Assembly: GCF_963921235.1 (NCBI RefSeq)
Contig: NC_086108.1
Coordinates: 89,468,001 to 89,532,000 of the forward strand
Reading direction: 5' to 3'
From: Mobula hypostoma
Taxonomy: Eukaryota
Length of the DNA stretch: 64,000 bases
Part shown: one piece after another, positions 11,200 to 39,768 of the stretch
How the letters are laid out: the number at the start of each line of letters is the position of its first letter
Position numbering within the stretch: the first letter of the stretch is position 1
Notes under the pieces: generated by a model
What the model was told of the DNA's origin: nothing
The model's database searches: none
Seen by the model: only the letters and a program-made list of their open reading frames with translations
Position numbers and translations under genes: made by a program

Positions 11200-11480
11200 A
11201 TCCTTTTTCTCCCTCTGTCCCTCTCACTATACTCCTTTCCCATCCTCTGGGCTTCATCCCTCCCCCTTTCTTTCTCCCTAGGCCTCCCGTCCCATGATCC
11301 TCTCATATCCCTTTTGCCAATCAACTGTCCAGCTCTTGGCTCCATCCCTCCCTCTCCTGTCTTCTCCTATCATTTTGGATCTCCCCCTCCCCTTCCCACT
11401 TTCAAATCTCTTACTAGCTCTTCTTTCAGTTAGTCCTGACGAAGGATCTTGGCCCGAAACATCGACTGTACCTCTTCCTA
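11200..11480 (+). mobile_element. Penelope-like terminal fragment inside CR1
   Basis: Closely matches the reverse complement of about 20346-20620, which is linked to a GIY-YIG-type C-terminus. Confidence 0.8.
11431..11468 (+). ncRNA. Minimal type I hammerhead ribozyme motif (Penelope-associated)
   Basis: TAGTC-CTGACGA-A-GGATCTTGGCCC-GAAAC-ATC-GACTG: CUGANGA and GAAA boxes, stem I AGUC/GACU, stem II with one mismatch, NUH triplet AUC. Confidence 0.7.
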
Positions 11481-12106
11481 CAAACGCAATGTTGGCTTTT
11501 ATTTGAAGGGGAATAGTATATAAAAGCAAGGAGATAATGCTGATGCTTTATAAGACACTAGTCAGGTCGCACTTGGAATATTGTCAACAGTTTTGGGCCC
11601 TCTTATCTCAGAAAGGATATGTTGTCATTGGATGATTTTGGGAATGAAAGGGTTAACATATGAGGAGCATTTGGCAGCTTTGGGCCTGCACTCAGGGGAA
11701 TTTATAAGAATGCAGGGGGATCTCACTGAAACCTACTGAAAGTTGAAAGGACTAGATAGGGTGGATGTGGAGAAGATGTTTCCTATGGTGGAGGTATCCA
11801 GAACCAGAGAGTATAGCCTCAAAATTCAGGGGCGACCTTTTAGAACAGAGATAAGGAGGAATTTTTTTAGCCAGGGAGCAGTGAATCTGTGGAATGATCT
11901 GCCACAGACTTTAGTGAAGACCATGTTCGTAGGTATATTTAAAGTGAAAATTGATGGTTACCTGACTAGTCAGGGCATCAAAGGATATAGCAAGAAGGCA
12001 GGTGTAGGGGGTTGAGTGGGATCCGGTATCAGCCATGATGGAATGGTAGAGCAGACTCGATAGGCTGAATGGCCTAATTCCTCTCCAATGTCTTATGGTC
12101 TTATGG

Positions 12107-12262
12107 ATCCCTCTGGCCAATGGGGTGATTATTGCAATCATGCATATGCAGACATCTCAGGTCAATGGGGTGTTTTTTGCAATCATGCATATGCAGACAT
12201 CTCACGTCAATGGGGTGTTTATTGCAATCATGCATATGCAGACATCTCAGGTCAATGGGGTA
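12107..12262. repeat. 45-bp minisatellite, about 3.5 units, with about 1.5 more at 8793-8856
   Basis: Unit TGCAATCATGCATATGCAGACATCTCAGGTCAATGGGGTGTTTAT repeated in tandem. Confidence 0.92.
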
Positions 12263-13134
12263 TTTCCTGGTCTGCATTCAACCCCAGTCTGCAGCTCCAG
12301 AAAGATTATTTTTCTGACCTACATTTTAAATTCAATCTACAATCCACATTCAGACCTGAAGACTGGTTGCTGTTGAAATTAATATTTGCTATATTCCATA
12401 TCTCCAGAATATGCCCGAACACTGATAATCTTATTAAGACAGTGGACAAATGAATCATTTAGAAATATCAATTGCAAATATGATTGTTAAATTTCTGGCT
12501 ACTTAACAGCTGATTACTAATAACAAATATATTAAAGTAATAAGTTTTAAATTGCCTTCTTTTTGACTGATGCTGTTGAAATAGATAATTTAAGTAAATA
12601 AGCTTCTTTTAATTAATCATTTCAGCACTTGGATGTGGATTTCTGACACAGCATTGTGCCCACGCCATAATATGAGAAGAGAAAGTCTGTCTCACTGTCC
12701 TGATTAAAAGGATACTGTTTTTCAAATATAAGTAAATAGATTCCATTCAAACATCTGTAAATCTCAAATGATGATCTTCTTTGAAATACTTATGGCATTA
12801 AATAAATACCACAGAGTAATCAATTGTCAGAAATAATCTGAAAACGTGATGTACACTTCTACAGAAGCCACTTTTATCCTGAAAATACTAAATTACAAAA
12901 TTCTGTAAACTGAAGAACATGATTTCAATTATCTCATGTAGAAGTACGGACTCAAACAGCTGTCAAAAATCTTAAATAATGTAATACAAATAAAAGAATG
13001 TTATGATGGTGGAATTTTGAAACACAAGTAGAATATCCTCAAAATCCTCAGCAAATCTGCTTCATCTGTGAAGTAAGAAATATTGTTTCAATATGATGAA
13101 TCTTCTTTGATGGATAAGCATGCTTCTGGGTTAA

Positions 13135-13600
13135 GGATTTCAACAAGGAAGCTTGCCTCCTGACTTTCTGACTAACCCCACCATGGGGAACCTTGTCAAA
13201 TGCCTTACACCACATCCATTGCTTCATCAATTTGTTTTGTCACTTCTTCAAAGAACTTAATCAGGCTCATGAGGCACGATCAGCCTCTCACAAGTCCATG
13301 CTGACTATCCCTAATCATACTATGCCTCTTCAAATGCTCATAAAATCTGTTTCTCAAAATCTTCTCCAATAGTTTGCCCACCACTAACTTAAGACTAACT
13401 GGACTATAATTCCCAGTGTTATCCCTACTCCCCTGCTTGAACATTAACTGGCCTATCACTGTGGTTCCCATCCCTCTATCCAACAGTTTAATGGTATAAA
13501 CCCTCCTCAACAGTTCTAGCAGACATACCCACAAGGATATTGGTCCCTCTCGAGTCCAGGTGTAACCTGTTACTTTTGTTCTTTTGTACCGTATATCCCA
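13135..13600 (-). mobile_element. CR1 fragments
   Basis: GNYSPVSLKLVVGKLLEKIL, SQHGLVRG, KAFDKVPHG. Confidence 0.85.
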
Positions 13601-13655
13601 TGATTCTATATCCAAAGGTCTATGTTTTGGACTATGTTTCCAGTACCACCTAATT

Positions 13656-13873
13656 TGTGTTGTTGTTCAGTCATTTAGTCAAAACCAACTCTTCATGACC
13701 TCATGGACCATAGGGTCCGTATGGTTTTCATGGCAAGATACAGAAGTAGACTACCAGGCCTTTTTCCTGCACAGATACTGCTGCTGCTCAGGTTGGGACC
13801 CATCTGGATTTGACTCAAGACCATCTGCCTTGAAGTCCAGCACTGATGCCACTACACCACCAGCTGGCCCCCT
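13656..13873 (-). mobile_element. tRNA-headed SINE with an RTE/BovB-like tail
   Basis: Minus strand: A-box-like TGGTGTAGTGG, B-box-like GAGTCAAATCC; 3' end GTCCATGAGGTCATGAAGAGTTGG...GACTGAACAACAAC; 9-bp TSD CACCTAATT at 13647-13655 and 13874-13882. Confidence 0.8.
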
Positions 13874-14151
13874 CACCTAATTACAATCACCTAAATGCAA
13901 ATGTTCCCATAATTGCACTGAAACCCAGTCAGCGCATGATTGAATAGTGAATTGCAATACTATTCATCAGTAGCTATCAATATGTGACAGCCAAAAGAAG
14001 GGAAGGAGGCCACTGAGTCACTCTGTACCTGCAGGAGAAATATTTCTCATTAGAGTTTATTTAAACAAAAGGCCATCCAGCTGAAGAAAGATATGGCAGA
14101 GATATGGAACTGTCTCTGTTTTTGTACTTGTCTAGCAGTCTCTTAAATTTC

Positions 14152-15075
14152 ACAGTGGAGTTGGGGTCGCAGGGCACCTAAATGAAATGAGATCTTCCCA
14201 AGCACAAGATCATTTGGGCAGAGCTTTGGAGAATGGCGTCCTTCCACATTTCTTTTCTCCCTACACCATCACGGCTGCACACATTCGGGCTAAGAGCCAA
14301 CTCTAACTGCAAGCTTTGTGGTCAGCGGGGTTCACTGGCACTCATACTGTCAGGATGCAAAACAGCTTTAGCACACATATGGTATAGGTGGCACCATAAC
14401 AAGGTCCTTCTGTCCCTTGCTGACACACTGGAGTGAGAGAGGTATAGAAAGAGACCAGTGGCAGAGAGGCAAACAGGGCAATCATTTCCATCAAGAAGAG
14501 GGCCACGCCAGTCGTATCAAAGAGGCCTAAATCCAATCTGCTGCAAACAGCCAAATCATGGGAGATGAGGGTCAATGTGGGGAGGAAGCTGCAGTTCTCA
14601 GGAGTGGTGCAAACCACACTTCAACCAGACATCATACTGTTGTCCACTGAAGACAAGAAAATCATCCTGGTGGAGTTCACAGTACCATGGGAGGAAGGAT
14701 ACGAAGAGGTTCATGAGAGGCCCTGAAGTACCGGTTCTTAGTCCAGGAGTGCAGGGACAAAGAATGGCTGATGTGGCTATTCTCCGTGGAGATCAGGGTT
14801 CCCAGCAAGGCTGGCATGAAGGTTGCTGTCTGTGCTGAGCCTTGATGGAAAGAACAAGAACCAAGCAGGCCGCAGGATGGGGGAGGAAGCAGAAAGAGCC
14901 TCTTGCTGGATATGGAGCAGGCGAGAGGAGTTGAGCAGTGACTTGGCCACCACCACTGACCCACCAACTGGAGTGTGTAGTGGTTAAGTGTCAGAACACT
15001 CTGTGAAGGTTGGGCACCACCTGACACCATCTGCTCCTGGCCAAAGGCTACAGTTACCTCATCAGGTAATTTAAG
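14152..15075 (+). mobile_element. 3' fragment of a restriction-like-endonuclease non-LTR retrotransposon (HERO-like), degenerate
   Basis: Degenerate CCHC knuckle CKLCGQRGSLALILSGC, RWHHNKVL, and LQPDIIL...LVEFTVPWEE (PD..E nuclease motif) across frameshifts. Confidence 0.8.
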
Positions 15076-15569
15076 AGAGCACCCCGGTCGGTGTATGATA
15101 CAAGCATGCTTTTGGAATGAGTCATTATGAAGTGGGGTTCATCACCATGAATACATTTACAGGCATGCTTTTATTGTTCTGCCAAATTTGGTCATAATCC
15201 TGCCACATCTAATACCTAATCAAGGAAGTCAGATGATTGAATGTTTACAATTTGCTCTAGGAGATCCCTGTATCTTTCTCTTTTCGTCTAAATAGTCATA
15301 AATCCTGTAAAGGTGGAAGCTGAAGTAGTTTCATTGGGATTTGAATCTCATATCTTTTATTTCCCAGCAGAGTTGTTGCACTTTGATATACATTTTGTAA
15401 TATGCCTGTTCGGGAATGGTCATTGGCTCTTGGTTGAAGCAATGAATCTCTCAACACACAAACCATCTTTTCATATCCATTTATTAATCTTTTTGCATTG
15501 AAATTATGCCCAGTTCAGTAAGATTTCAATACCTAAGGAGGGAATTATCATGAAAACATTGTATCTAAG

Positions 15570-15803
15570 AATCACAAACATGAGAAAATCTGAAGATGCT
15601 AGAAATCCAGATAAGCACATAAAATGCTGGAGGAACTCAGCAGGCCAGGCACTATCTATGAAAATAAATAAACAGTCGATGTGTCAGGCCGAGACCCTTT
15701 ATTAGGAAGGTGAAGGGTCTCAGCCCAAAATGTTGATTGTTTACTGTTTTCCATTGATGCTGCCTAGCCTGCTGAGTTCCTTCAGCATTTTGTGTATATT
15801 GTG
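15570..15803. mobile_element. Fold-back mini-element made of two inverted Penelope-like termini
   Basis: AAAATGCTGGAGGAACTCAGCAGGCCAGGCA pairs with TGCCTAGCCTGCTGAGTTCCTTCAGCATTTT; 11-bp TSD TTGTATCTAAG at 15559-15569 and 15804-15814. Confidence 0.85.
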
Positions 15804-16150
15804 TTGTATCTAAGTGTTTTATCTGCGTGTAGTCTCTAAACAGTGTTGAATGTTTTAATATGCAAATACCTTTTAATTATAGAACTGGTACAAGGTCTCT
15901 TTTTCAGTAAGGGCTTTACTTAAGGATTAGACATATCCTAAATCCGGAACTGGATTTACAGTAGATAGAACTGAAACTAATAACAGCCTAATGTGTACTG
16001 TGATATTTTGAAAAAGGCATAAACCCAGAATTTATAGTACAGCATTTACTATAAAACCTATCGAGCTCACTAGCGTAATATTACAGGTTTAGATTTAGAT
16101 TCATTAAGGATCTGTTGCATAACAGCATTAAAGCACAGCCATATGCACAG

Positions 16151-16154
<4 letters not shown>

Positions 16155-16202
<48 letters not shown>

Positions 16203-16288
16203 ACACACACACATGCACAGACACATACACACACGCAAGCACACACACACAGACAAACACATACATACACACAAACACACACACACAC
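16155..16288. repeat. (CA)n microsatellite, imperfect
   Basis: Direct reading. Confidence 0.97.
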
Positions 16289-17544
16289 CTTTGACTTCCA
16301 AACCCTTCTGACCCAGGAGCCTTGACTATCGGGTCCCGCCTTCCAGACTCACCGACTTCCGTCTTCAAGGCTCAGGATTCAACCTTCGTTATCGACTCAA
16401 GGACTCGCCAATCACGGCTTGGCTTCAATCTCTGGACTCGCACAGTCTTCCAACTCCGGGACTTGCCAACATGGCAGGGTCATCCTTGGCCCAGTTTGTG
16501 AAGAAATGTATTGAAACATTAAAATAATCCTAAATGTTACTCTTAAGTAGCTGGCAAATGGATGCCTGTACAATAAGTAGGAATACTAAGATTGGAGGAA
16601 TATTTAGATTTAGATTTTTTAATAATCAGAATGAAAATTGTAAACCCTCCACCCTCTCTCAAGTTCTAAGGAAGGGTTGCTGACCACATCTTTCCACATA
16701 TGCCGCTTGACTGGTTGAGTTCCTCCAGCATTTCTGTTACAGTTTGGTCTTACAGATAATGTGGATGATTCTGACAACCCAATGACCTGTAAAGGAACAT
16801 TGTAAATTCTCACCTATTGGTACATCTCCATAAAGGAATGACAGACATGAGCTTTTTGTTCCTCTTGGCTGAAAGGATAGGCTTCTTTTCATGGACAGAC
16901 TCTTCTAGAATAGTGTCCCGAAAAAGAATCTACTATAAATATATCATCGAGACTTCCACCCACATCATCTTCTCTCCTGCTTTTAATTTGCTATACTTAT
17001 TAACTTGTGAAAAATTATCTATAAAAATTACTGCTTACCTGTAGCCATAACTTAAGACTGGGTCCCTGATAAACTAGCCTGACATTTCTGCAGCTCATTA
17101 AACACTCATATCTTAGTAATATCTGGTCTTCTGATGTAAGGGCACATCTGACCAGGACGAAATCTTCAGACACGGATCATCTTCAAAAAGTATTGATAAC
17201 TTCTAAAAAATCCAAAATATTTTCTATAGAATCTCCAAGATAGAGATGTTCTCTGTATTTACTAGATAATTTGCAGGGAGAAAAGAAAACATTTCACTGT
17301 CATAGCTAAAAATAGCACAGGCCAGCTGGTTAGAAACACAATGTTGCTCAACACAAAATAGCTGACATTTTCCAGCCCTGTTTTTTTTGTTGTAATAAGG
17401 TAACTATGCAGGATTTGGTAACACATAGATATTGCATCCATTCCTAACAAAGGGTGTTGTAACTGACCATCCATCTATAATAGTGTTGATCACTTTAGCT
17501 AGATTTTCCTGAGGAGAAAGTATCTTGCTATTCCTCTTTAGCTC

Positions 17545-17630
17545 TATCTATCTATCTATCTGTCTTGTCTATCTATCTTTCTATCTATTAACCTATCTAC
17601 CCATCTACTTATCTCTTATCTATCTATCAA
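17545..17630. repeat. (TATC)n microsatellite, imperfect
   Basis: Direct reading. Confidence 0.85.
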
Positions 17631-18104
17631 ACATTTTTCTATCTGTTTATTATTTGTTTGTTTATTTACTCATTCATCCATTCATTCATTTATTTATGGT
17701 AACTTAGTAACTTTTATGTCTTGCACTGTATTGCTGCCACAAAACAACATATTTCACAGCATATGTCAATGAAATAGACCTGACTCTGATCTTGTTTCTG
17801 ATTCTGATGTGTCTAAGGCAATTATTTGTGTGGCCTGTGACTTTGTTAGGATGAGAGTTAGTCTACTATCATAATCTGAAGGTAAGCAATAGTAAAACAG
17901 CCTGAGAAACACCAAAACTTCAGATGCTGCTTAACTAGTTGATTTTACAACTAGACAATTAGCTGCAAAGAATAGAGCATAAGCTTACAGTCACCTGTGT
18001 CTACTGTGGGTCAGTTTCTCATCAGTGAATAAAGAAATTAAGTCAATCTAAACTATATGTTAATAGCCCTCCAAAACCTTCAGCAAAAATGCTCATTTGA
18101 AAGT

Positions 18105-18990
18105 TTTTATACTTTATACTTTATTGTCACCAAACAATTGGTACTAGAACGTACAATCATCACAGCGATATTTAATTCTGCGCTTCACACTCCCTGGATT
18201 ACAAATATTAAATATTAAAAATAGTTAAAATGAGTAAATATTAAAAATTTAAATTATAAATCATAAATAGAAAATAGAAAAATGGGAAGTAAGGTAGTGC
18301 AAAAAAAACGAGAGGCAGGTCTGGATATTTGGAGGGTACGGCCCCAGATCCGGGTCAGGATCCATTCAGCAGTCTTATCACAGTTGGAAAGAAGCTGTTC
18401 CCAAATCTGGCCATACGATTCTTCAAGCTCCTGAGCCTTTCCCCAGAGGGAAAAGGGACAAAAAGTGTGTTGGTTGGGTGGGTCGTGTCCTTGATTAGCC
18501 TGGCAGCACTGCTCTGACACTGTGCGGTGCGAAGTGAGTCCACGGACGGAAGATTGGTTTGTGTGATGTGCTGTGCCATGTTCACGATCTTCTGCCGCTT
18601 CTTTTGGTCTTGGACAGGACAACTTCCATACCAGGTTGTGATGAACCCTAGAGGAATGCTTTCTATGGTGCATCCATAAAAATTAGTGAGGGTTTTAGGG
18701 GACAGGCCAAATTTCTTTAGTTTTCTCAGGAAGTAAAGGCGCTGGTGGGCCTTCTTGGCAGTGGACTCTGCTTGGTTGGACCAAGTCAGGTCATTTGTGA
18801 TATTGACCCTGAGGAACTTGAAGTTTTTGACCTGTTCCACTTGTGCACCACCGATGTAAATTGGGTCGTATGGTCCGCTACTCCTTCTGAAGTCAACAAC
18901 CAATTCCATCGCCTTGCTGATGTTGAGGGATAGGTTATTGTCTTCGCACCATGCCACCAGGTTCTTAATTTCCTCTCTGTACTCAATCTA
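18105..18990 (-). mobile_element. Rex1/Babar-type LINE 3' part; 200-aa frame still open
   Basis: WCEDNNLSLNISK.MELVVDFR, KKAHQRLYFLRKL, LTNFY.CTIESI, RFGNSFFP. Confidence 0.88.
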
Positions 18991-19955: not shown

Positions 19956-20259
19956 AAATGAGGATGTTGGCCCGCCAAATTCACACTGACCATCAGGTAT
20001 CCATTTACATCATTAGTACAGTCATGCTATTTTATTCCTTCCACATTTCCATCAACTCGCCCTGATTCTATCACTCACTTACACATTTGGGACAATGCAA
20101 AGTGGCCAATTAACCTTGCAGCCCACGTGTGTTTGTGATGTGGGAGTAAGCACAGGAAACCCGTGTAATCGCAGAGAAAAGATGCAAATTCCACACCCAC
20201 AACACCAGTCGTCTGCATTGAACAAACCGCTGGAGCTGGGAGGAACAAATGTATGTCTG

Positions 20260-20897
20260 CAAACATGAGGAATTCTGCAGATGCTGAAAATTCAAGCAAC
20301 ACACATCAAAGTTGCTGGTGAATGCAGCAGGCCAGGCAGCATCTCTAGGAAGAGGTACAGTCGACGTTTCGGGCCGCGATCCTTCGTCAGGGCTAACTGA
20401 AGAAAGAGCTAGTAAGAGATTTGAAAGTGGGAGGGGGAGGGGGAGATCCAAAATGATAGGAGAAGACAGGAGGGGGAGGGATGGAGCCAAGAGCTGGACA
20501 GGTGATAGGCAAAAGGGATATGAGAGGATCACGGGACAGGAGGCCCAGGGAGAAGGAAAAGGGGGAGGGGGGGAACCCAGAGGATGGGCAAGGGGTATAG
20601 TCAGAGAGACAGAGGGAGAAAAAGGAGAGAGAGAGAAAGAATGTGTGTATATAAATAAATAACGGATGGGGTACGAGGGAGAGGTGGGGCATTAGCGGAA
20701 GTTAGAGAAGTCAATGTTCATGCCATCAGGTTGGAGGCTGGAGAAGGCAATGTTCATGCCATCAGGTTGGAGGCTACCCAGACAGAATATAAGGTGTTGT
20801 TCCTCCAACCTGAGTGTGGCTTCATCTTTACAGTCGAGGAGGCCGTGGATAGACATATCAGAATGGGAATGGGACGTGGAATTAAAATGTGTGGCCA
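20260..20897 (-). mobile_element. Penelope-like element 3' fragment (GIY-YIG C-terminus plus terminal repeat), inserted in a SINE-like host
   Basis: ATHFNSTSHSHSDMSIHGL...RLEEQHLIFCLGSLQPDGMNIDFS; near-TSD TGTAT(G/A)TCTG; internal 36-bp-period duplication at about 20713-20775. Confidence 0.85.
20358..20395 (-). ncRNA. Minimal type I hammerhead ribozyme motif; catalytic core intact
   Basis: Minus strand TAGCC-CTGACGA-A-GGATCGCGGCCC-GAAAC-GTC-GACTG; one mismatch each in stems I and II. Confidence 0.72.
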
Positions 20898-21002
20898 CTG
20901 TATATCTGTGCCACTTCCAAAATCATTTGGGTAGATGACAGACAAGATAAAACAAGTTTGGGGGATACTTATAGTCACAAGTATGAATGTTTAATGTTTG
21001 GG

Positions 21003-21870
21003 AGGGGCACGGTAGCATTGCAGTTAGTGCAAATGTTTGCCAATGCCAGCAATCACCGATTTAATTCCTGCTGTAAGGAGTTTGTACATTCTCTCTGAAA
21101 CCGGGCAGATTTCCTTCCACCTTCCAGAGTTGTACAGGTTAGGGTTAGGGTTGGTAAATTATAGGCATGCTATGTTGGGACCAGAAGCATAGTGACACTT
21201 ACAAGAGAAAATCTGCAGATGCTGGAAACCCGAACAACACACAAAAAGTGCTGGAGGAGCTCAGTTGGCTAGGCAGCATCGATGGAAAAAATACAGGCCA
21301 CCCTCAGGCTGGAGGAGCAACAGCTTATATTCCATCTGGGTAGTCTCCATCCTGATGGTATGAACATTGACCTCTCGAACTTCTGGTAATGCCCTCCTCC
21401 CCTCACCACTCTCTTACCTTACCTCCTTGCCTGCTCATTGCCTCCCTCTGGTGCTCCTCCCCGCTTTTCTTTCTTCCATGGGCTTCTGCCCTCTCCTATC
21501 AGACTCCTGCTTCTCCAGCCATGTATCTCTTTCACCAATCAACTTCCCTGCTCTTCCCTTCATTCTTCCTCCTGCCAGTTTCACCTATCACCTTGTGTTT
21601 CTCTCTCCGCTCCCCCCAGCTTTTAAATCTACTCCTCATCTTTTTTTTTCCGGTCCTGCCAAAGGGTCTTGGCCCAGAACGTCGACAATGTTCTTTCTAT
21701 AGATGCTGCCTGACCTGCTGAGTTCCTCCAACATTTTGTGTGTTTTGCACAATGACACTTGCTGGCTTCACCCACCATAATCATCAGACTTTATTGGTTG
21801 TTGACACAAAAGACACATTTCACTGTCTGTTCTGATGTTTGGATGTGCATGTGACAAATAACTGATACAT
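21003..21870 (+). mobile_element. Degenerate tRNA-derived SINE interrupted by a Penelope insertion
   Basis: Head GGGGCACGGTAGCA...GTTAG; body TGTAAGGAGTTTGTACATTCTC; resumes after 21760; related tail at about 6100-6250. Confidence 0.6.
21201..21746 (+). mobile_element. Penelope-like fragment with a short inverted 5' arm (21201-21296)
   Basis: LRLEEQQLIFHLGSLHPDGMNID; decayed hammerhead at about 21652-21688; near-TSD GCA(T/C)A(G/A)TGACACTT on both sides. Confidence 0.82.
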
Positions 21871-22389: not shown

Positions 22390-23851
22390 AATACGTTCTA
22401 AGGCCTTGGCCTCAGTACCTCCTTGTACAATTGGATCCTCGATTTCCTCACTTGCAGATCCAAGTCAGTCCAAATTCACAGCAACATCTCCTCCACAATC
22501 TCCATCAGCACAGGTGCAGTATAAGATTGTGTGCTTTACAATGATGGCTGTGTGGTTAAGCACAGCTCCGATGCCATATTCCAGTCTGCTGACGACACCA
22601 CTGTCGCAGGCCAAATCAAAGGTGGTGATGAATCAGCACAGATGAAGAAGATTGAAAATCTGGCTGAGTGGTGCCATAACAATGTCCTCTTACTTAATGT
22701 TGGCAAGACCAGGAAGCTGATTATTGATTTCAAGAGGAAGAAACTAGAGTTCCGAGAATGAGTCTTCATCAGAGGGTCAGAGGCAGAGAGGGTCAGCAAC
22801 TTTAGCTTCCTCATTATTATTATTTTGGAGGACCTGCCCTGGCCCAGCACGCAGGTAGAACGATAAAGAAAGCACGGCAGACCCTCTATTTTCTTCGGAG
22901 TTTGCAGAGATTTAGCATGACATATAAAACTTTGACAAACTTCTATTGATGTGTATTGGACAGTATATTGACCGGTTGTATCACATCCTGGTATGGAAAC
23001 ACCAATGCCCTTGAACAGAAAATCCTACAAAAAGTAGTGGATTCAGCTCAGTCCATCACAAGTAGAGCACTTCCAACTATTGAGCACATCTATGTGAAAC
23101 GTTGTTGCAGGAAAGCAGCAACCATCATTAGGGACCCCATCTTCTCGTAACTGCCATCAGGAAGAAGGTTCAGGAGCCTCAAGACTTATGCCACCAGGCT
23201 CAGGAAGAGTTATTACCCCTCAACCATCAGGCTGTTGAATCAAATTGAATAACTTCACTCAATTTCAGTTGTCCCATCACTAAAATGTTCCCACAACCTA
23301 TGGACTAAACATTAAGGACTCCTCATCTCATCTTCTCGATGTTTATTGCTTATTTATTTATTTATTGTCTTTTTCTTTTGCATTTACACAGTTTGTTGTC
23401 TTTTGCACAGTGGTTGAATGCACCACGTGGCCAAGTGGTTAAGGTGTTAAACTAGCGATCTGAAGGTCGTGAGTTTGAGCCCCAGCCGAGGCAACGTGTT
23501 GTGTCCTTGAGCAAGGCACTTAATCACACATTGCTCTGCGATGACACTGGTGCCAAGCTGTATGGGTCCTAATGCCCTTCCCTTGGACAACATTGGAGAG
23601 GGGAGACTTGCAGTATGGGCAACTGCTGGTCTTCCATACAACCTTGCCCAGGTCTGCACCCTGGAGAGTGAAGACTTTCCAGGCACAGATCCATGGTCTC
23701 GCAAGACTAACGGATGCCTTTTGAATGCACAAGCTGATGCAGCCTTTCATGGATTCCATTAAGGTTATTGTTCTGTTATGGATTTATTGATTATACACTT
23801 AAGAAATAAATCTCAGAGTTGTGCATGGTGGCATATAGGTACTCTGATGAT
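22390..23851 (+). mobile_element. Rex1/Babar-type LINE RT 3' half and 3' UTR; tail resumes at about 24916-24945
   Basis: ADDTTVAG, LAEWCHNN.LLLNV.KT..LIIDF, SILTGCITSWYGN. Confidence 0.88.
23424..23720 (+). mobile_element. tRNA-derived SINE
   Basis: A box TGGCCAAGTGG, B-box-like GAGTTTGAGCC, GTGTCCTTGAGCAAGGCACTTAA body; 10-bp TSD TTGAATGCAC at 23414-23423 and 23721-23730. Confidence 0.88.
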
Positions 23852-24915
23852 AGTGGCCACCCATTTTAATTCCACTTCCTATTTCCATGCTGAAATGTCA
23901 GTCCATGGCCTCCTCTACTGTCACGATGAGGCCACAGTCAGGTTGGAGAAGCAATACTTTATATTCTGTCTTGGTGGCCTCCAATCTGATAGCATGAACA
24001 TTGATTTCTTGAACTTCGGGTAAAGCCCCCGCTTCACAATTCCCAGTTCCCATTTCCTTCTCTCACCTTAACTCCTTACCTGCCCATCACCTCCCTCTGG
24101 TGCTCCTCCCCTTTTCTTTCTTCCATGGCCTTCTGTCTTCTCCTATCAGACTCCCCCTTCTCCAGCCTTGTATCCCTTTCACAAATCAACTTCCCAGCTC
24201 TTTATTTCATCCCTCCCACCCACCTCCCGGTTTCACCTATCACTTTGCATTTCTTCCTACCCTCCCACCATCTTCGAACTCTGACTCCTCATCTTCTTTT
24301 TCTCCAGTCCTGATGAAGGGTCTTTGCTTGAAACATCATCAATACTACTTTTCCATAGATGCTGCCTGGCCTGCTGAGTTCCTCCAGCATTTTGTGTGTG
24401 CTGCTTGAATATCCAGCATCTGCAGATTTTAAAACCACAAACACGAGGAAATCTGCAGATGCTGGAAATTCAAGCAACGCACATAAAAGATGCTGGTGGA
24501 ATGCAGCAGGCCAGGCAGCATCTGTAGGAAGAGGTACAGTCGACGTTCCGGGCTGAGACCCTTCGTCAGGACTAACTGAAAGAAGAGATAGAAAGAGATT
24601 TGAAAGTGGGAGGGGGAGGGGGAGATCTGAAATGATGGGGGGGAGGGGGATGGAGCTAAGAGCTGGAAAGTTGATTGGCAAAAGGGATACGAGGCTGAAG
24701 AAGGGAGAGGATTATGGGGCGGGAGGCCTAGGGAGAAAGAAAGGGGGAGGGGAGCACAGAGGATGGGCAAGGAGTTATAGTGAGAGGAACAGAGGGAGAA
24801 AAAAGAGAGAGAGAAAAAAATAATAATTGATTAATAAGGGATGGGGTACGAAGGGGAGGTGGGGCATTAATGGAAGTTAGAGAAGTCAGTGTTCTGCAGA
24901 TTTTCTCTCGTTTGC
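23852..24915 (+). mobile_element. Penelope-like fragment (+) with a second one nested antisense at 24431-24892
   Basis: VATHFNSTSYFHAEMSVHGLL...RLEKQYFIFCLGGLQSDSMNIDF; inner insert flanked by 12-bp TSD TCTGCAGATTTT (24419-24430, 24893-24904). Confidence 0.85.
24537..24574 (-). ncRNA. Minimal hammerhead motif with intact stems and one core substitution (GAAA>GGAA)
   Basis: Minus strand TAGTC-CTGACGA-A-GGGTCTCAGCCC-GGAAC-GTC-GACTG. Confidence 0.6.
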
Positions 24916-29620: not shown

Positions 29621-32600
29621 AATGCTTTATCATTCCTTATGCTGAAGGAACTAGTGAAGATGGAAAAAAAACTTTGAAAATATATTAAAACTTCCTTTTA
29701 AGCTAGAACCACAATTTGTGTTGCCGTTATTTTAAAAATTCATGTTCAATCGATATCAAATGTTTAAAAATATAGGCATCAGCGAGATGAAAGGGGATGT
29801 CATCTTCAGACCAAATGGGATTGTAGAGGCTATGATACAGGTACTTACAATCATGAAAGATAATGTGAGAGAACAGGACTGTTTATCTATATATTTTCCA
29901 GTTGTATCCTTAACCACTGCTCCCTCTAAGCTGCACAGGTGACTAAAATGCTTCCGCGCACTTGCCTTCGTTGCCAAGCAGATGGAAATAGGCACAGCTA
30001 GAAAATGTTTACAAAACATGAAAGATTGTCTTTGTTGTTCTGTATTTAATTATACCCTTCAATCAATAAATAAAATCAAAAGGATGTGATTTTTCACTTT
30101 TCATTCTAAATATTCATAGTATGCATACTACAAAAAAAATTAAAGTGCCATGCAATTTTCAGTCTGTATAAAAAATTCCTGTTCAGAGCAATAGTTGGTC
30201 CATGCAGCTGTAATAAAAATAGAGGGAATGTTGCCCTTAACTTAATTTTTTCTTGCTTCATTCCTATATCTGCTGGACATTTCCTACCAGGTTGACCTGG
30301 TCTTAAATGTACCTTTATTTGTTTTCTCTCTCCCTAACCTACTAATCAGATGGCTTTATCATTTTTGAATCATGGCACCCCAAGCCTCACTCTATCAGAG
30401 TTATTATCTTTGGGCTATTCCTCCGCACCCCCTACAATACATAAAACTAACTAATTTTCCCTCTTTTTCTAGCCCTTCAACCTGAAACATTACCCCTGAT
30501 TCTCCTTCCACAGATACTACATGATCTGCTCAGTGTTTCCAGCACTTTCATTTTAATATCCAGTATCTAGATTTTCTTTTTTGGATTTTCTTAGGTACTG
30601 AGGAACTGTTGCCGCTGGTTGAATACTCGAGATCAGGGAATATGGTGTGAAGGTGATTTACAAAAGAACTAAGTTTCTTGCGCAGTGAATGGGTCAGCTC
30701 TGGAATGTATTCCCAGAGTGACAATGGAGGACAATTCAATTGGAACAGTCTAAAAAGAGCTGGATGAAAGGAAGATACTGATAGGAAAGAAGCTTCAAAG
30801 AGCAGGTTCGTGATGTGGGACTAGTTGGATTGCTCTTGTATCGAGTCAGTATGGACTTGACACATTCTATATTGTAAGTGTTCTTAAATTTCAGAATCAG
30901 AATCAGGTCTACAATCACTGACATATGTTGTGAAATATGCTGTTCTGTAGCAACTGTATGGTGCAATGCATAATAATTACTATAAGATAATAATACATAA
31001 AAGGGTAAATAGATAGTGCAAGAAGAGTTTTTGTGTGACTGTATTTGTGCTTGCAATTTTGAATGTGCTGTGTATGTGCTCCTTGGCCCCAGAGGAACAC
31101 TGTATCATTCAGCTGTATTCATGTATAGTTGAATGATAATTAAACTTGAATTTGAAAACTGTCTCGGACCAAAATGTTGACTGCTTATCCATTTTTATCC
31201 ATGCTGCCTAACCTGCTGAATTCCTCCAGGATTTTGTGTGCGTTGCAAAATAATGAGATGGTGTTCATGGGTTCATGGACTGCTCAGACGCCTGATGGTG
31301 GAGGCGAAGAAGATGTTCCGAAAACACTGAGCGTGCGTCTTCAGGATCCTGTACCCCCTCCCTGAATGGTGAGGGTCCTTCATGATGGGTGCTGCCATCT
31401 TGAGACATCACCTTTTGAAGACGGTGAGACTACAACCCTCTGCAGCTTCCTCTGATCCTGTGATCAGCGCCTCCATTTCATATAGTGATGAAACCAGTCA
31501 GAACTATGTGTTAGAATGTGGACATATTTTTTGAATGAGAAAATGTACCTTAAAACATAGAAGGTTTCTACAGTATATGATCACGTCCCTTTTTGAATGC
31601 TGACTAAAATGTCTATGCCTTTTCTGATCTTTGGATATTCAATCCAGATTAAATACCCTGTTTTAGATATTTAATCCAAAGGTTGTTGCATTCCTTTTTA
31701 AGTAATTAAAATCAGTCTTTCCTTAATTTAAGGGACAGGAATAAGACAGAAACACTGAATGGTTATTATTTCTTCCAAAATTATAGCTGAATCAAAATAG
31801 ACCTGATCAGGAATAACACTTGCTCTACTTTCAACTGAATTTTTTTTCCATCCGTTTGCATTTTGTTTTCCAGTATCTCTTAGTGACACCATGGCAACAA
31901 CACTGACATCCTTGTTTCAAGTTCCACTTTTACATCACACTCTTTCATATCATGATGAATATGCAATGGGGGGATCTGAAATCAGAAATATATTTCTCTA
32001 TAATCAGATTTAACCTGAGGTGCAAATCTTGGGGTTAGGAACACAAGTAGGGTCCTGAACTATTCAGTATCTGAATCATTAGCTGTGAGTGACTTTAAAC
32101 CCTAGGGCTTCATTTATGCACTCTGATTCCAAGTCTGATGCTCTGATACCACTGTCAATGTGTGAGAATCATGTTGGTGGGAGGTATCAGACCCTTCCAG
32201 CAACCTGATGTGATAAGAAAAGGACTTGGCAATGGCAGTGTAGAGGGTTGTAATTTGGAGAGGAGAGCCAAGTGGTAATCCCAGGGCAGGTGAAGTCCAA
32301 GGAGCCACTGAAAATAGTATTGCAAATACTTAATAACAATCATTGAGTCATAGAGAGATACATTGCACAAACAGGCCCTTCAGCCCTCTAAGTCCATCCT
32401 GACCACTTATTTACACTAATACTATATTATTTTTATTCTCACCTCACACATTCATATTCTGCCCCCATTCCAAAACTCATTATTGACTGCACCTTTGACT
32501 AACCCACACACCTTTAGGTTGTAGAAGGATACCAGTAGACGGGGAAGAAACCCACAGAAATTGTGTGAGCTCCACATATGCCGCACTGAAGTCCATATTG

Positions 32601-33779: not shown

Positions 33780-34572
33780 TAAACACAAGAGATTTGCAGA
33801 TGCTGGTACACCAACCAAATGCTGGAGGAACTCTAACTTCTGGTAATTTCTCCCCCTCCTCCTTCCCTCTTCTTCCATTTCACTCTGGTTCCCCTCTTAC
33901 CACTTCCCTTCTCATCTGCCCATCTCCTCCCCTTGGTGCCCCTCCTCCTTCCCTTCCCCCGTGATCCACTTTCCTCTCCTAGCAGATCCCTTCTTCTTCA
34001 GCTCTTTAGATTTTCCATCTATCACCTCCCAGTTTCTCACTTTAGTCCCTTCTCCCCCACATACCTTTCCTATCACTTTCCAGCTTGTATTCCTTTCCCC
34101 TACCCCACTTTCCTATCCTGGCTTCTTCTCCCTTCCTTTCCAGAGGAGACACCGAGGTGGTGTTGGAGAGAGCAGAGGCCTCTATGAGCACGCTGTAATC
34201 CATTCTGGGTTGGGGGCTGGCTCTTCCATTGGTGCTGCCCTCCAGTGTTTGCACAAAGAACAAGCTAGACCAAAAACAACATCTCATGCGCCATCAATCT
34301 ACGGGTCATGCCACTCAGGGACTTACTCTATATATATTTTTTGTGACTGTATATTTCCAGCTATCTTAACTATATCTGTTATATGCTGTATGCTGTTGCA
34401 CTGAGGCCCTGAAGGAACGCTACTTTGCTTGGCTATATCCAAGTATTGTTAAATGATATGTAAACTTAACCTTGACCTTGATGAAGAGCCTAGGCCGATA
34501 CATTGACTGTTTATTCCTTTTCATACTCAGCTACTTGACTTGCCGAGTTCCTCCAGCATTTTGTATGTGTAA
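33780..34572 (+). mobile_element. Decayed Penelope-like terminus with a short inverted arm, interrupted by another retroposon tail at about 34145-34480
   Basis: GATTTGCAGATGCTGG...AATGCTGGAGGAACTC at left and GAGTTCCTCCAGCATTTT at right; C/T-rich body. Confidence 0.65.
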
Positions 34573-34984
34573 ACCATTTTACTATTGTGTTTACAACTTC
34601 TTTTTGTGGTATCATAACAACTGTCTGCAAGCGCAATTATGAGTGAATTTTCATCTATTCCCCCTTCTGAACAGAACTATGATGATCAATATTGGTGCAC
34701 TGTTGCGAAGCCCAAAGTGAATTAGACTTACTGATACTATCCATGGAGTGATTTGGACAACAGCATCTACTTTTCTAATTATCATTTGCTGTTCTCCACC
34801 TTTGCACCAAAAGGCTACCTCTTAAACTCATTAACTGAATCCTTCAGTATGTCTGTTGCTAAGGAAGTGAAACACAGGGCACTTTGCCTGCCTGTTTATA
34901 ATACTCCATCCCGGCATTGAAAACTCAGTTTCATTGCATTACCCTTATGCAATCAGACCATTTATTTCATTCTTGACATATTCT

Positions 34985-35290
34985 CCCTATTGCAAAGTAT
35001 TATATAAGCCGTGATTGCACCAGAGAGGGCGTAAAGGAGATTTATGAGGATGTTTCCAGGGCTGGCAAATTGCAGCTTTGAAGAAAGATTGGATAGGTTA
35101 GAGTTATTTTCTTTGGAACAGAGGAGAATGGGGAGATATTTAATCAAGGTGCATTAAATTATAATGACCTAAGTAGAATAAGAGGTAAGGACCTCGTTCT
35201 CTTAGCAGAGGTGCAAAAAAGCCAGAGCATATATTTAAAGGAAATGTTGCCCAAGGGATTGTAGGTATCTGGAACTAATTGCCTGAGATT
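34985..35290 (+). mobile_element. Old CR1 3' fragment
   Basis: Degenerate ER..RRFMRMFPGL...EERLDRLELFSLEQRRM. Confidence 0.7.
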
Positions 35291-35679
35291 GTAAGGGAAG
35301 AAATCCTCAACACAATCCAAAGTTTATCAATACTATCTAGAGTATCGTCAGATTCAATGTAAGAAGATGTCTGGGTGAGGACTTTATCTGGACCATCAGA
35401 ATAGAGAGGAGTAACATTAATAAACAGACTAACAGATAAACAATGGAAATACTTAAATCTGAGTTTGTAGCATATTGCTACAGAGAGGTAGGAAGCGTAT
35501 CAAGCAATAGGTAAATAGATTAAAGTGTAATTGAAACTGAGAAGGGAGGCAGATGATAAAATTAAGAAGCACCAATATTAAAGAAAATCATTATAAATAT
35601 GAAAACTGTAGCAAAGGAGTAAACAAAAAGATTGGTGTGGGTTAAAAAGATTAGAAACTAATCTAAATAATTCTAAGGC

Positions 35680-36143
35680 TTACATAAAATGCTGGAGAAA
35701 CTCAATAGGAATGGCACCATCTATGGAGGGGAATAAAGAGTCGATGTTTTGGGCCGAGACCCTCCATCAGGAATGGAAAGGAAGGGGTAAAAAGCCAGAA
35801 TAAGAAGATGGGGGGAGGGGTTGGAGTATAAACTGGTAGATGATGGGAGAAGTCAGATGAGGGGGAAGGTGGGGAATGAAGTGAGAAGTCTTGAGGTGGT
35901 AGATGGAAAAGGCAAAGAGCTCAAGAAGAAGGAATCTGATAGGAAAGGAGAGAGGACTGTGGGAGAAAGAGAAGGAGGAATGATACCGGAGGGAGTTGAT
36001 AAGCAATGAGGAGAAGAGGAGGGGGAAGACTGGAGTGAGAATGTATCCTCTTTAATTCTCTCCATAGATGGTGCCTTACCTGCTGAGTGCATTCAGCATT
36101 TTGTGTGTGATTTCCAGCATACTCGGAATCTCACATGTTAACA
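35680..36143 (-). mobile_element. Penelope-like fold-back insertion
   Basis: Inverted termini; decayed hammerhead at about 35738-35772; 11-bp TSD AATTCTAAGGC at 35669-35679 and 36144-36154. Confidence 0.82.
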
Positions 36144-37139
36144 AATTCTAAGGCCTTTTATAATCAGATAAAAGTATTTCCATGGTTTTAATTTTTTTTT
36201 AATTTTGTTTCAAATTTATAGCATTTGCAATTTGTTTTGATTTTCATAAGCCCACTCAGCAATGATGGTTGCATCTACGTGTGTAGATCCTATTTGATGC
36301 TGATATGAACTAAATATTGTACTGCAATTTTTAAACAGTGTACTGCTGAAACAAAGTGACAATACATTTTTTCTGCCCTGTTGATGATTAGTAGCTTACT
36401 AGTAGGTGAGAACAAATTATGCCAGAGAATTTGATTGTCCAGATTCAGATTCCCACCTTTTGCAACTTTTCTGTTTTCTGGCAAACCCTGACAAATTATT
36501 AAAATGAAATTCAGTTCAAGGAAATAAATTCTCCAACATAATTTATAATCATTAAACTGAGAGCATAGAGAGCACCTCCACCAGGGCAGCACTTTGTATA
36601 TCTGGAGACCTGCCAACAGCAATGGAGAAAGCCATTGATTAAAAGAAAATGACTGCCACCCTCTACCTCCCTGCATCTTAAAGATTTAAAGACACAAGTT
36701 ACATTTATTATCAAAGTATGTATACAGAATACAATTCTGAGATTCATCCTCCTGAAGGTAGCCATGAAACAAAAAAAATAAAGAGACGTCATGGAGCCCA
36801 TTCAAAGAAAATATCAAACACCCAACGGCATAAAAAGAACAAATTGTGCAAATGGCAAAAAAACAGGCGAACAACACATAGAATATCAAACATCGAACTA
36901 GGAGTTAAAGGAGTATTCAGTTTAGTTCAGTTCAGTTTAGTCAGCACCATGCCACTGGCTGACTGCAAGCCACAGAGCTAATATTTGCTGAAATGCCCCA
37001 GTCCGTATCGATCGCCCCGACCAAACCACTCAAAAACAGCAAAGATGAAGAGTAAACAGAATCCAGAAACAGATGCGACATGGATCCCAAGACTCCTGCA
37101 TTTTTCTCCGACAGCACCTATCAAGAGGGAGAAGAACAG

Positions 37140-37305
37140 TGCGTACAAAATCCTGGGAGAACCCTGCAGGCCAGGCAGTATCTATGGAAAAGAGTACAGT
37201 CGACCTTTCGGGCCAAGACTCAAGATGCTGCCTAGTCTGCTGAGTTCCTCCAGTATTTTGCATGTGTTGCTTGGATTTCCAGCATCTGCAGATTTTCTCT
37301 TGTTT
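37140..37305. mobile_element. Small Penelope-terminus fold-back
   Basis: GCAGGCCAGGCAGTATCT pairs with AGATGCTGCCTAGTCTGC; left arm stops inside hammerhead stem II. Confidence 0.72.
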
Positions 37306-38834
37306 TGTGAAGAGGAAGAGAAAGACTGGTAAACCTAGGCAGAATTTGTTGAACACCTGCCCTTCCTTCACTCTTGTCTTAATCAACTTTAGCCCTCAGG
37401 TATGAATTAAGAAGAGATGAGAAACCCTACTGCCTCTCAGAAATCCCATACTCACCTTCTGAGTTGTTCTACAATTAATCTTGCACTCACACTGCTACAA
37501 CACCTAAAGTAATGCAAGAGATCCCTCGCGATAACACAGGTAGCCAACTAAATGTCCACTGCAAACATTTACAAAGGGCTTTGACTCACGAATTTTAAAG
37601 GCAGGGTCAATATGAGCACTGTGAAGATTTGGCAGCATCCTGAAGGGGGCAAGAAGAGAAAAGGACCGTCTGCAAGGTCCTAAAATGCTATTGTATCCAA
37701 AACGATCCATGGTAAGCTAACATAACGAAAAGGGGCTGCTGTCTGGAACCCACGTAACACCGTTTAATCTTCTCATTGACCAAGGACAACCAATGGTTTG
37801 GGATCTGGCTGAGGCTAACTCATGAGCCTTATTACTGTGGCTTTACTTATCATTACTGTGCCCACCAATGGAAAGCGATATAGCTTTGTTAGAAGGCCGT
37901 GAGCAAAAGATCCTTTAAACACTAAATACAATCATTTAGCTACAATTCAAACCAAGCAGTTGAAGTATGAGATGAAGTCAAAATCTCATCATTTTTTCAG
38001 GGTTCCTGTTGCAATGTTACTCAGGAACATTCCAGATATGCACTCTCCAATCAATATGTAGTAAACTGGGGGAGAACACTACTGGGACTTGGAGCACTCC
38101 TGTAATTGAATTTATACTTTCGAGGTTATTTCTCCAGGTATTTTCTCAAGTATAATGTCAGAATAAATGAATTAATACGTTCTGGATATGATCACACCAT
38201 GTATATTTAATTAAAAGGTTTCTTCTCTATTAAAATTGAATAGGCAGTGGTGGTAAATGATTCAAGAATCATTCTGCTGGATCCCCTCTCATTTATAACC
38301 AGTATCGTTTTTATTGTTATTGTAGTTGTTGAACATGCTACATGCTGGAAGTCACATGATTTGTTAATTAAATTTTGACAATTAGCGGGGCACTGTCATC
38401 ATGACCTCAATGCATTTCACACAGCAGATCCTTGGGATCCAGTGACCAATGGAAGAAACACTGCTTTCCCGTAACCAGCGAAATAAAGGATTGCACCATT
38501 GAGGGGAATTATCATTCAGTGTAATGGAGGCTTTTATTGAAAGTGTTATCAAGTGATATTTTTCAGCCATACCATTTCCACTGATTATAAACCTTAATTT
38601 CACCAGGAACTTTTGGTTCTTGAGATTATTATATTCTTGGCTCAAAACCTTTGCAACTCAGCAGACAGACAAGATGAAACTGAATTTGTGGTGAAAGACT
38701 CTGAACTTGTTATCCAGACAAAAATTGACCAAGCAGGGAATCACAAAGCCTTACAAAAATTAGAGTCAATGGAAATAAAATTTAAACACTTGAGCCGACA
38801 CAACAGAAGATGGCTGTTGCTATGGACATCCCAT

Positions 38835-39260
38835 CATGTCAACCACAACCTAACGCTGGAAGAGTTCCTCAGAGCGGTTTCCAAGGTCCAGTCTCCTTCA
38901 AATGCTTCATCAGTTAATTTTCTTCCATTATAAAGGGAGAAATGAAATGAGTTCAACTCTAACAAGACTTAAGAAGACAACGTGGGGTTGATAGTGCATC
39001 CCCCATTCACTGTTATCAACAATGGTACACCAAGGCTGCTGTGTGCACCATCCTCAGGATGCACTGCAGTAACTTGGCAAGTCATCTTTTGTCAGCAAGC
39101 AACCTTTCCTACTTTGAGGTTCAGAAGAGACATGTACATAGATATGCCACCATGTTCTAGTCCCCTGCTCCGTCGCATATATGACAGCAAGGATGATAGA
39201 ACCTGAGAAAGTGACACTTCTCAAAGACAAGTATGAATGGGAACTATGTACAGGTTTTAT
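38835..39260 (+). mobile_element. Very old LINE RT remnant; clade not assigned
   Basis: Degenerate VPQSGFQGPVSFKCFIS..SIIK ([14 protein letters not shown]) and AAVCTILRMHCSN. Confidence 0.45.
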
Positions 39261-39632
39261 CATTCATGCACACAACCTATAAATAAGAAACATGGAATTG
39301 TGTGAATTCAATGCAATACAGAGGTCCCACCTCACCCCATCCATTATCCCAATTTGAATAAAAGAAGTTTACCCTTGTTTACAAATACTGAAAATCACAA
39401 TACACATTAAGATTAAGCATTAAATTGAAGAGAGCAAGGAAAAGTAAGAAGAAGGAAAAATCCAATCAGCAACAATTCATAATTCAAATCCAATAATCAC
39501 ATTATCTTCCATTTTTTTTTCAGCGTAGAGAGGTTGATGACAGTCATGAACGATCATTTACCCGTACTTTTTCGTTGGTTATTCAAGTGTCATTTGAAAA
39601 CATGCTTGAAACAAAGTTTACTTCTTAAAATA

Positions 39633-39768
39633 TGCAAACACGAGGAATTCTGCAGATGCTGGAAATTCAAGCAACACACATCAAAGTTGCTGGTGAACGC
39701 AGCAGGCTAGGCAGCATCTCTAGGAAGAGGTACAGTCGATGTTTTGGGCCGAGACCCTTCGTCAGGAC
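39633..39768 (-). mobile_element. Isolated Penelope-like 3' terminus that starts at the hammerhead motif
   Basis: Near-identical to about 20260-20393; minus strand GGTC-CTGACGA-A-GGGTCTCGGCCC-AAAAC-ATC-GACTG. Confidence 0.82.

What the first reader, a model, noticed from the sequence alone, without database searches (positions are those of the whole stretch)
11431..39768. Dispersed family of minimal hammerhead ribozymes in Penelope-like termini
Seen: a ~38-nt motif recurs at 11431(+), 20358(-), 24537(-) and 39733(-), with more decayed copies near 15672, 21652, 24305, 34480, 35738 and 37195. The consensus is (T)AGTC-CTGACGA-A-GGGTCTCGGCCC-GAAAC-GTC-GACTG. It has stem I AGUC/GACU, the CUGANGA box, one extra A, stem II GGG/CCC, GAAA, and a GUC cleavage triplet. 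Stem III shrinks to the palindrome ACGU with no loop. Established: minimal type I hammerheads occur in Penelope-like terminal repeats and are thought to cleave as dimers. Inference: this family brought a self-cleaving RNA module to about 10 sites in this window. The four best copies differ from consensus by about 2-3 substitutions, several of them CpG-type, and 20358 keeps the whole core. I do not know whether this family has been described in this taxon.
Basis: partly seen in the sequence, partly recalled or inferred. Interest (0 to 1): 0.75.

Follow-up and report, generated by a model that had tools for sequence, protein, structure and literature searches.

The report
Penelope retroelement ends with decayed hammerheads
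These repeats are cut-short end pieces of a very abundant Penelope-type jumping gene in what is likely a ray genome, and they carry an already described miniature hammerhead motif (a predicted self-cutting RNA) that is damaged in every copy in this stretch, so here they are likely inert debris.

Summary
It is the minimal type I hammerhead of Cervera & De la Peña 2014, sitting in the terminal repeats of a Penelope-like retroelement with a Neptune-type linker. Nine of nine full elements fetched carry it at both ends of an RT + GIY-YIG frame; one has an open 1,016-aa ORF. The family is huge: 36,060 + 5,457 exact 34-mers, and roughly 750,000 pieces by extrapolation. Corrections: no window copy is intact (20358 keeps the core but has mismatches in stems I and II), and the commonest young form has a G·U first pair in stem II. 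Cleavage was not testable. One non-trivial result: 47 of 103 young copies begin 21-60 nt upstream of the cut site, at the front edge of the ribozyme, and only 5 begin at or after it. So copies were likely made from uncut RNA whose 5' end lies there. The scan had already noted this family and this pile-up in this genome and in other shark or ray genomes. Verdict: new member of a known kind.

The parts
11201..11487 (+). Young-type element end: 3' UTR plus hammerhead at 11431-11468 (stem II mismatch, ACAU); broken off about 20 nt after the cut site by another repeat
   Evidence: (I1, D15)
20258..20900 (-). Young-type 5'-truncated element: last ~68 codons of the GIY-YIG domain (20695-20898, 79% identity), 3' UTR, hammerhead at 20358-20395 (core intact, mismatches in stems I and II), long 3' end
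24438..24894 (-). Young-type element end with hammerhead at 24537-24574 (A13G), long 3' end; tail-to-tail with the 24305 copy
39632..39768 (-). 137-nt stub that begins at the first letters of stem I; hammerhead at 39733-39768 (G12A, ACAU)
15575..15805 (.). Old head-to-head pair (15575-15707 minus, 15710-15805 plus); both arms start at the front edge of a decayed hammerhead
21201..21751 (.). Old pieces: 21201-21307 minus (end without hammerhead), 21288-21402 plus (GIY-YIG remnant), 21523-21751 plus (decayed hammerhead at 21651-21688)
23847..24429 (+). Old 5'-truncated element: GIY-YIG remnant 23847-24017 (70% identity), hammerhead at 24305-24342 with both core boxes but broken stems
34477..34571 (+). 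Old element end, decayed hammerhead
35680..35775 (-). Old element end, decayed hammerhead at 35738-35775
37137..37305 (.). Old head-to-head pair (37137-37221 minus, lacking the CUGANGA box; 37222-37305 plus, lacking the hammerhead)
16664..16734 (+).
30477..30576 (+).
31159..31247 (+).
33784..33833 (-). Further old piece (3' end only)
36040..36137 (+). Further old piece (no hammerhead core left)

Best explanation
The motif is the minimal type I hammerhead in the terminal repeat of a Penelope-like retroelement with a Neptune-type linker, and the window copies are 5'-truncated, mutated insertions of it that are likely inert. Shown: full elements are repeat-ORF-repeat, with one hammerhead 3.3-3.7 kb from the other; copies have two preferred 3' ends about 35 nt apart; they often carry an inverted second arm; and about half of the young copies begin at the front edge of stem I, not at the cut site. 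Inferred: the parent RNA likely starts 30-55 nt before the cut site. The element's RT likely starts inside the RNA at +67 to +73 or at about +103 and copies uncut RNA until it runs off that 5' end (giving 100-170-nt stubs) or falls off earlier. The ribozyme would cut only in the parent RNA, as a pair through the ACGU palindrome or with help from the element's protein, and would not be needed for insertion, as shown for the anole element.
For: RT motifs, DKG, C-x4-C-x2-C linker, and CxxC between GIY and YIG in single genomic copies. Pfam RVT_1 E 3.8e-6 and GIY-YIG E 1.1e-3 on a 1,016-aa open frame; GIY-YIG E 1e-4, above its cut-off, on L005. Hammerhead upstream of the ORF in 11 of 30 loci picked by the ORF's 5' part. 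Both hammerheads present in 9 of 9 of those loci fetched whole. Structure descriptor: 14 hits in 600 kb vs 0 reversed and 0 in 10 shuffles. Subfamilies clustered on the flank alone differ at N7, H17, loop II, 11.1 and the 2.1-1.1 pair, and the larger ones keep the core. U2.1 goes with A1.1 in 6 of 24 rows vs 2 of 271. 3' ends: 32 of 103 at +67..73 and 70 at +95..114, like the two RT start sites in PMC11167929. 5' ends: 47 of 103 at -21..-60 and 5 at 0..+21; 21 of 54 among copies without an inverted arm, rough P 1e-11. Same architecture as the published Acropora Neptune motif.
Against: No cleavage data for this family. The RT match is below Pfam's cut-off, and the GIY-YIG match is below it on L294 and L074. 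The covariation rests on few, old, related rows (one event). The flank 3' of the ribozyme is also conserved across subfamilies, so conservation is not special to the catalytic core. The predicted monomer fold is a rod that pairs the core with the cut site, and stems I and II have only about 0.1 pairing probability in 165 nt of context. The 5' pile-up is weaker and noisier in old copies (20 of 108 at -21..-40). The RNA start was not seen directly. Neptune vs Nematis was not tested by a tree.
Confidence: 0.88

Rival explanations
1. The motif descends from a hammerhead but no longer cuts. It is kept because it overlaps the promoter, a splice acceptor or the RNA structure that the element's protein binds.
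For: Copies are made from uncut RNA (5 of 103 begin at or after the cut site). In the anole element, ribozyme mutants insert normally and no RNA reads end at the cut site. The predicted monomer fold is an inactive rod. The youngest wave changed G10.1-C11.1 to G·U. The downstream flank is similarly conserved.
Against: The changes between subfamilies fall at positions the ribozyme tolerates (N7, H17, loop II, a compensated 2.1-1.1 pair). G10.1·U11.1 occurs in several published minimal hammerheads. The anole motif does cut when the protein is present.
Confidence: 0.2
2. The 5' pile-up comes not from the RNA start but from the copying enzyme stalling or switching template just after it has copied the ribozyme hairpin, or at a splice branch point or acceptor in the pyrimidine tract before stem I.
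For: A pyrimidine tract ending in CAG lies right before stem I. In Drosophila Penelope an intron ends at helix I. The ends are spread over 40 nt, not at one base. The pile-up is strongest in copies with an inverted arm.
Against: A hairpin should stop the enzyme on entry (near the cut site), not on exit. The upstream letters of the stubs share no common exon. The pile-up persists in copies without an inverted arm (21 of 54).
Confidence: 0.3
3. The short copies are an independent non-autonomous element (retrozyme or SINE) that copies itself from a self-cut circular RNA.
For: About half of the young copies are 100-170-nt stubs that begin at the ribozyme. Non-LTR retrozymes derived from such repeats were reported in the one chondrichthyan sampled.
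Against: The stubs have no fixed 5' end and grade into ORF-bearing copies. They share the parent's subfamily marks and 3' ends. No tandem array of the motif is in the window. They do not begin at the cut site.
Confidence: 0.05
4. The window copies were co-opted by the host to cut a local transcript.
For: 20358 keeps every core letter.
Against: All copies are damaged. The damage is of the CpG-decay type seen family-wide. Local density is ordinary. Copies point both ways.
Confidence: 0.02

Closest known systems
Minimal hammerheads (min-HHR) in pseudo-LTRs of metazoan Penelope-like elements (Cervera & De la Peña 2014, PMC4209133)
   Same: CUGANGA box, one extra base before stem II, GAAA + palindromic CG + UH, short open stem I, location in both terminal repeats, mostly single dispersed copies, pairs on opposite strands. 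The Acropora Neptune example has the same core layout.
   Different: No cartilaginous fish is among the species in their alignment. Copy number is far higher: about 81,000 intact by extrapolation (44,000-136,000) vs 4,000-9,000 reported for coelacanth and Xenopus. Stem II is short (4 bp).
Endonuclease-bearing Penelope-like elements, Neptune clade (described in Craig et al. 2021, PMC8557442)
   Same: Single ORF with RT, DKG, CX2-5CxxC linker and C-terminal GIY-YIG with CxxC and two histidines; partial tandems, inverted 5' copies, optional 30-40-nt tail.
   Different: Nematis shares the linker, and no tree with named references was built. Targeting to microsatellites was not examined.
Poseidon element of the green anole (Frangieh et al. 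2024, PMC11167929)
   Same: Two internal RT start sites that give two 3' ends; insertion from uncut RNA.
   Different: There the ORF starts inside stem II; here the conserved ATG lies about 138 nt after the cut site. Different clade (Poseidon has no linker zinc finger). A pile-up of 5' ends at the ribozyme's front edge is not described in the parts read.
Non-LTR retrozymes of animals (bioRxiv 10.64898/2026.07.22.740005)
   Same: Type I hammerhead derived from Penelope terminal repeats; reported in one chondrichthyan.
   Different: Retrozymes are tandem arrays with a ribozyme in each unit; these are dispersed truncated element ends.

Membership tests
min-HHR of metazoan PLEs | Core CUGANGA ... 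GAAA N N U H | tested here: met
   Family majority and 41,517 exact 34-mers; in the window only 20358 keeps the core with the palindrome
min-HHR of metazoan PLEs | One unpaired base between A9 and 10.1 | tested here: met
   14 of 14 descriptor hits
min-HHR of metazoan PLEs | G10.1-C11.1 opening stem II | tested here: met
   G-C in the window's young copies and in older subfamilies; G·U in the youngest (53 of 63), a variant also present in the published alignment
min-HHR of metazoan PLEs | Palindromic 15.2-16.2, no loop III | tested here: met
   CG in 12 of 14 hits; the other two are CpG-type changes
min-HHR of metazoan PLEs | Located in both terminal repeats of a Penelope-like element | tested here: met
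   9 of 9 full elements; 11 of 30 loci with the ORF 5' part reach the upstream copy
min-HHR of metazoan PLEs | Self-cleavage as a dimer or with protein | not testable with these tools
   Only assembled contigs were on hand, which cannot show RNA ends
EN+ Penelope-like elements | One ORF with RT and C-terminal GIY-YIG bearing the CCHH motif, and DKG | tested here: met
   (the RT score is below Pfam's cut-off)
EN+ Penelope-like elements | 5' truncation, partial tandem repeat, inverted 5' copy, 30-40-nt tail | tested here: met
   (45 of 103 with an inverted arm; two 3' end classes)
Neptune clade | CX2-5CxxC linker before GIY-YIG | tested here: met
   C-x4-C-x2-C in L005 and L074; feature as described
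Neptune clade | RT phylogeny separating it from Nematis | not tested
   No named reference sequences were on hand
Non-LTR retrozyme | Head-to-tail tandem units, each with a hammerhead | tested here: not met
   None in the window; not searched genome-wide
Rfam hammerhead families | Score at or near the family's gathering threshold | tested here: not met
   No hammerhead hit in the window or on an intact copy at E up to 10

The most novel reading that the evidence does not exclude
The ribozyme sits at the very 5' end of the element's RNA. About half of all young insertions are run-off copies made from an internal start 67-105 nt behind the cut site to that 5' end, often twice, head to head. The tens of thousands of stubs would then map the transcript start and show at genome scale that Penelope-like elements insert from uncut RNA. 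The ribozyme's job would be to clip off the capped first 30-55 nt and so take an RNA out of use, not to make the template.
Probability: 0.45. Interest if true: 0.5.

Novelty: new member of a known kind. Interest (0 to 1): 0.25.

Why it matters
As a catalogue item it extends a known ribozyme class to cartilaginous fishes at a very high copy number, and it warns annotators that these ends are transposon debris. The part with leverage is mechanistic. What the hammerhead does for Penelope-like elements is still open, and this family offers tens of thousands of near-identical insertions plus an intact ORF copy. Their 5' and 3' ends give a direct prediction for where the RNA starts and whether cutting precedes copying.

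Tried and rejected
Core-only pattern in the window: not above chance. Rfam: no hammerhead match; the miRNA-family matches at 24354-24526 are far below threshold and reflect the tail-to-tail hairpin. First fuzzy-match script timed out with no output. Sequencing runs: no RNA holder listed; the runs laid are contigs guessed to be RNA, so they say nothing on expression, ends or cleavage, and no spliced joint at the candidate acceptor stood among the joints shown. A pattern meant to pull out other hammerhead families returned mostly single-letter mutants of the same family; those 30 loci were dropped from the covariation count (328 of 378 rows kept). More divergent Penelope-like ORF remnants in the sample (33-69% identity) showed no recognisable second hammerhead family. 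No solved structure matches the ORF. No tRNA head, so not a tRNA-type SINE. Sequence look-up among earlier findings was empty. Rejected: copies beginning at the cut site as the main class (5 of 103); a spliced first exon on the stubs (no shared upstream letters); local clustering (density ordinary).
Full report
OBSERVATION. An ungapped scan gives 10 hits with at most 15 of 38 mismatches, against 0.2 per shuffle in 30 shuffles. The core boxes alone are not above chance (8 vs 7.4), and Rfam sees no hammerhead, even on an intact copy. No window copy passes a descriptor that needs the core, stem I of 4 bp or more and stem II of 3 bp or more. 11431 has a stem II mismatch and a broken palindrome; 20358 has the full core but a mismatch in each stem; 24537 has A13G; 39733 has G12A and a broken palindrome.

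WHAT CARRIES IT. The window lies in a 3.48-Gb genome. Thirty loci matching the 20358 copy share one fixed end about 100 nt past the cut site and run on for variable lengths on the other side. That side holds an ORF with RT motifs, DKG, a C-x4-C-x2-C linker and a GIY-YIG domain with CxxC between its two motifs. Pfam gives GIY-YIG E 1e-4 (above cut-off) on L005 and RVT_1 E 4e-4 on L017, and RVT_1 3.8e-6 with GIY-YIG 1.1e-3 (both below cut-off) on the 1,016-aa open frame of L294. Of 30 loci picked by the ORF's 5' part, 11 reach an upstream hammerhead at the same offset. I fetched 9 of those 11 whole, and all 9 have a second hammerhead 3.3-3.7 kb downstream. The conserved ATG lies about 138 nt behind the upstream cut site. 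Three window pieces keep the end of the GIY-YIG domain (20695-20898, 21288-21383, 23847-24017). The closest named protein relatives come from rays (Mobula hypostoma 88-95%, Hypanus sabinus 79-83%) and carpet sharks (63-72%), then unnamed or invertebrate sequences at about 43-56% (best 120 of 2,680 listed), so the host is likely a ray.

ABUNDANCE. Exact 34-mers: 5,457 with G10.1-C11.1 and 36,060 with G10.1·U11.1, reversed controls 0. An exact 33-mer behind the ribozyme occurs 33,777 times. Sixty 10-kb stretches, placed at round coordinates on large contigs, hold 129 profile hits (0 on the reversed sample), which extrapolates to about 750,000 pieces (585,000-927,000), and 14 descriptor-intact motifs (0 reversed, 0 in 10 shuffles), about 81,000 (44,000-136,000). 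The window's 18 pieces are therefore ordinary.

IS IT A HAMMERHEAD? It fits every sequence feature that Cervera & De la Peña list for minimal hammerheads (PMC4209133; I read parts 1-2 of 4 of the text, and parts 1-2 of 3 of supplement file 2; file 1 could not be searched). Their Acropora Neptune example has the same core layout, and G10.1·U11.1 occurs in several of their motifs, so the wobble in the youngest wave (53 of 63 spanning copies) is within the known range. Clustering 378 copies on the flank only gave subfamilies whose ribozymes differ at N7 (C or U), H17 (C or U), loop II, position 11.1 and, in the oldest small clusters (5-11 copies, noisy majorities), a U-A instead of C-G pair at 2.1-1.1. 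After dropping 50 rows from loci chosen for U2.1, U2.1 went with A1.1 in 6 of 24 rows against 2 of 271 (Fisher P 4e-6); these rows are related and amount to one event. Against a purely catalytic reading: the flank behind the ribozyme is about as conserved; the predicted monomer fold is a rod pairing the core with the cut site (-13.5 kcal/mol vs -7.3 for a partial hammerhead fold that I specified with a 3-bp stem II); and stems I and II have about 0.1 pairing probability in 165 nt of context. Among young copies that span stem I, 45 of 78 are intact, 42 of them with the G·U pair.

HOW IT LIKELY WORKS. I took 103 young copies by the exact 33-mer behind the ribozyme, blind to its state. Most come from the first 8 Mb of one contig, and five head-to-head pairs are counted as two copies each. 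Their 3' ends fall in two classes: 32 at +67..+73, 70 at +95..+114, 1 between; ends shorter than +67 could not be seen. This matches the 30-40-nt tail (PMC8557442, passages) that in the anole element is the stretch between two internal RT start sites (PMC11167929, parts 1-2 of 4). Their 5' ends are not uniform: 47 of 103 lie at -21..-60 from the cut site, 5 at 0..+21 and 5 at -1..-20; the stop rate per 10 nt is 0.12-0.17 there and about 0.01-0.02 further upstream. Forty-five have an inverted arm at the 5' end, and in most short pairs both arms end in the same zone. Among the 58 without such an arm, 21 of 54 still end there (rough P 1e-11). In 122 old copies the peak is weaker (20 of 108 at -21..-40) and the method noisier. 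Shown: the templates were uncut. Inferred: the RNA starts there and the enzyme runs off its end. In Drosophila Penelope the start lies 46 nt before a 75-nt intron (PMC2377424, passages) whose end meets helix I, so a ribozyme near the 5' end has precedent. The pyrimidine tract and CAG before stem I could be an initiator or a splice acceptor (consensus forms recalled, from no call); the stubs share no upstream exon. By analogy with the anole element, where the ribozyme cuts only with the protein and is dispensable for insertion, and with the weak dimer activity of the schistosome motif, cutting would happen only in the parent RNA. The dispersed window copies would be inert.

WHAT IS KNOWN. The class, its place in Penelope repeats and its dispersal as single motifs were published in 2014. 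That paper's alignment lists no cartilaginous fish. A 2026 preprint reports retrozymes in the one chondrichthyan it sampled (parts 1-3 of 5 read; supplements not seen). Searches for 'Penelope, Neptune, shark, retrotransposon' (0 papers), 'hammerhead ribozyme, chondrichth' (5), 'Penelope, elasmobranch, transposable element, genome' (4) and 'Penelope-like, pLTR, hammerhead, truncation' (4) showed no listing devoted to this family or to the 5' pile-up; apart from the papers named above I saw only these listings, and the library lacks most subscription journals. Earlier notes of this scan describe the same family, and the same pile-up, in this genome and in other shark or ray genomes. My counts were made before those look-ups, and the notes are not independent support.

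VERDICT. A real feature, correctly read by the first stage, and a new member of a known kind. The window itself is ordinary transposon debris. The family-wide 5' pile-up is the one testable lead. Interest 0.25.

Noticed in passing
L294:3625-7180 (G000:C68): A full element with two hammerheads and an uninterrupted 1,016-codon RT + GIY-YIG frame, so the family was active recently.
   Followed up: partly
genome-wide; L186:941-979: The youngest wave has G10.1·U11.1 instead of G-C (36,060 vs 5,457 exact copies), a CpG-type change fixed in the parent lineage.
   Followed up: yes
window 20396-20420, 24280-24307; L186:915-945: A pyrimidine tract ending in CAG directly precedes stem I in young and old subfamilies; it could be a splice acceptor or a transcription initiator.
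   Followed up: partly
window 24305-24574: An old plus-strand copy and a young minus-strand copy meet tail to tail 8 nt apart, forming a long hairpin that gives sub-threshold miRNA-family matches. The element may favour its own ends as targets.
   Followed up: no
window 11445 and 20380: Two separate window copies share the same G-to-A change in stem II (GGA for GGG); it could be a minor subfamily or a recurrent change.
   Followed up: no
L291:4600-4900 and L299: Some full elements are about 200 nt longer; L291 shows an internal duplication in the proline/serine-rich N-terminal part of the ORF.
   Followed up: no
window 1669-2400, 6468-7900, 10243-11131, 11482-11820, 56806-57940, 60698-62004: Many fragments of another, CR1-like (by recalled motifs) LINE family; one abuts the 11431 copy just after the ribozyme.
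   Followed up: no
window 18355-18987, 47445-47843: Decayed frames that match Pfam ALKBH8_N, likely remnants of a further non-LTR retroelement rather than a host gene.
   Followed up: partly
window 12111-12265, 45483-45769, 45893-46235: Tandem repeats with units of 45, about 70 and 35 nt.
   Followed up: no
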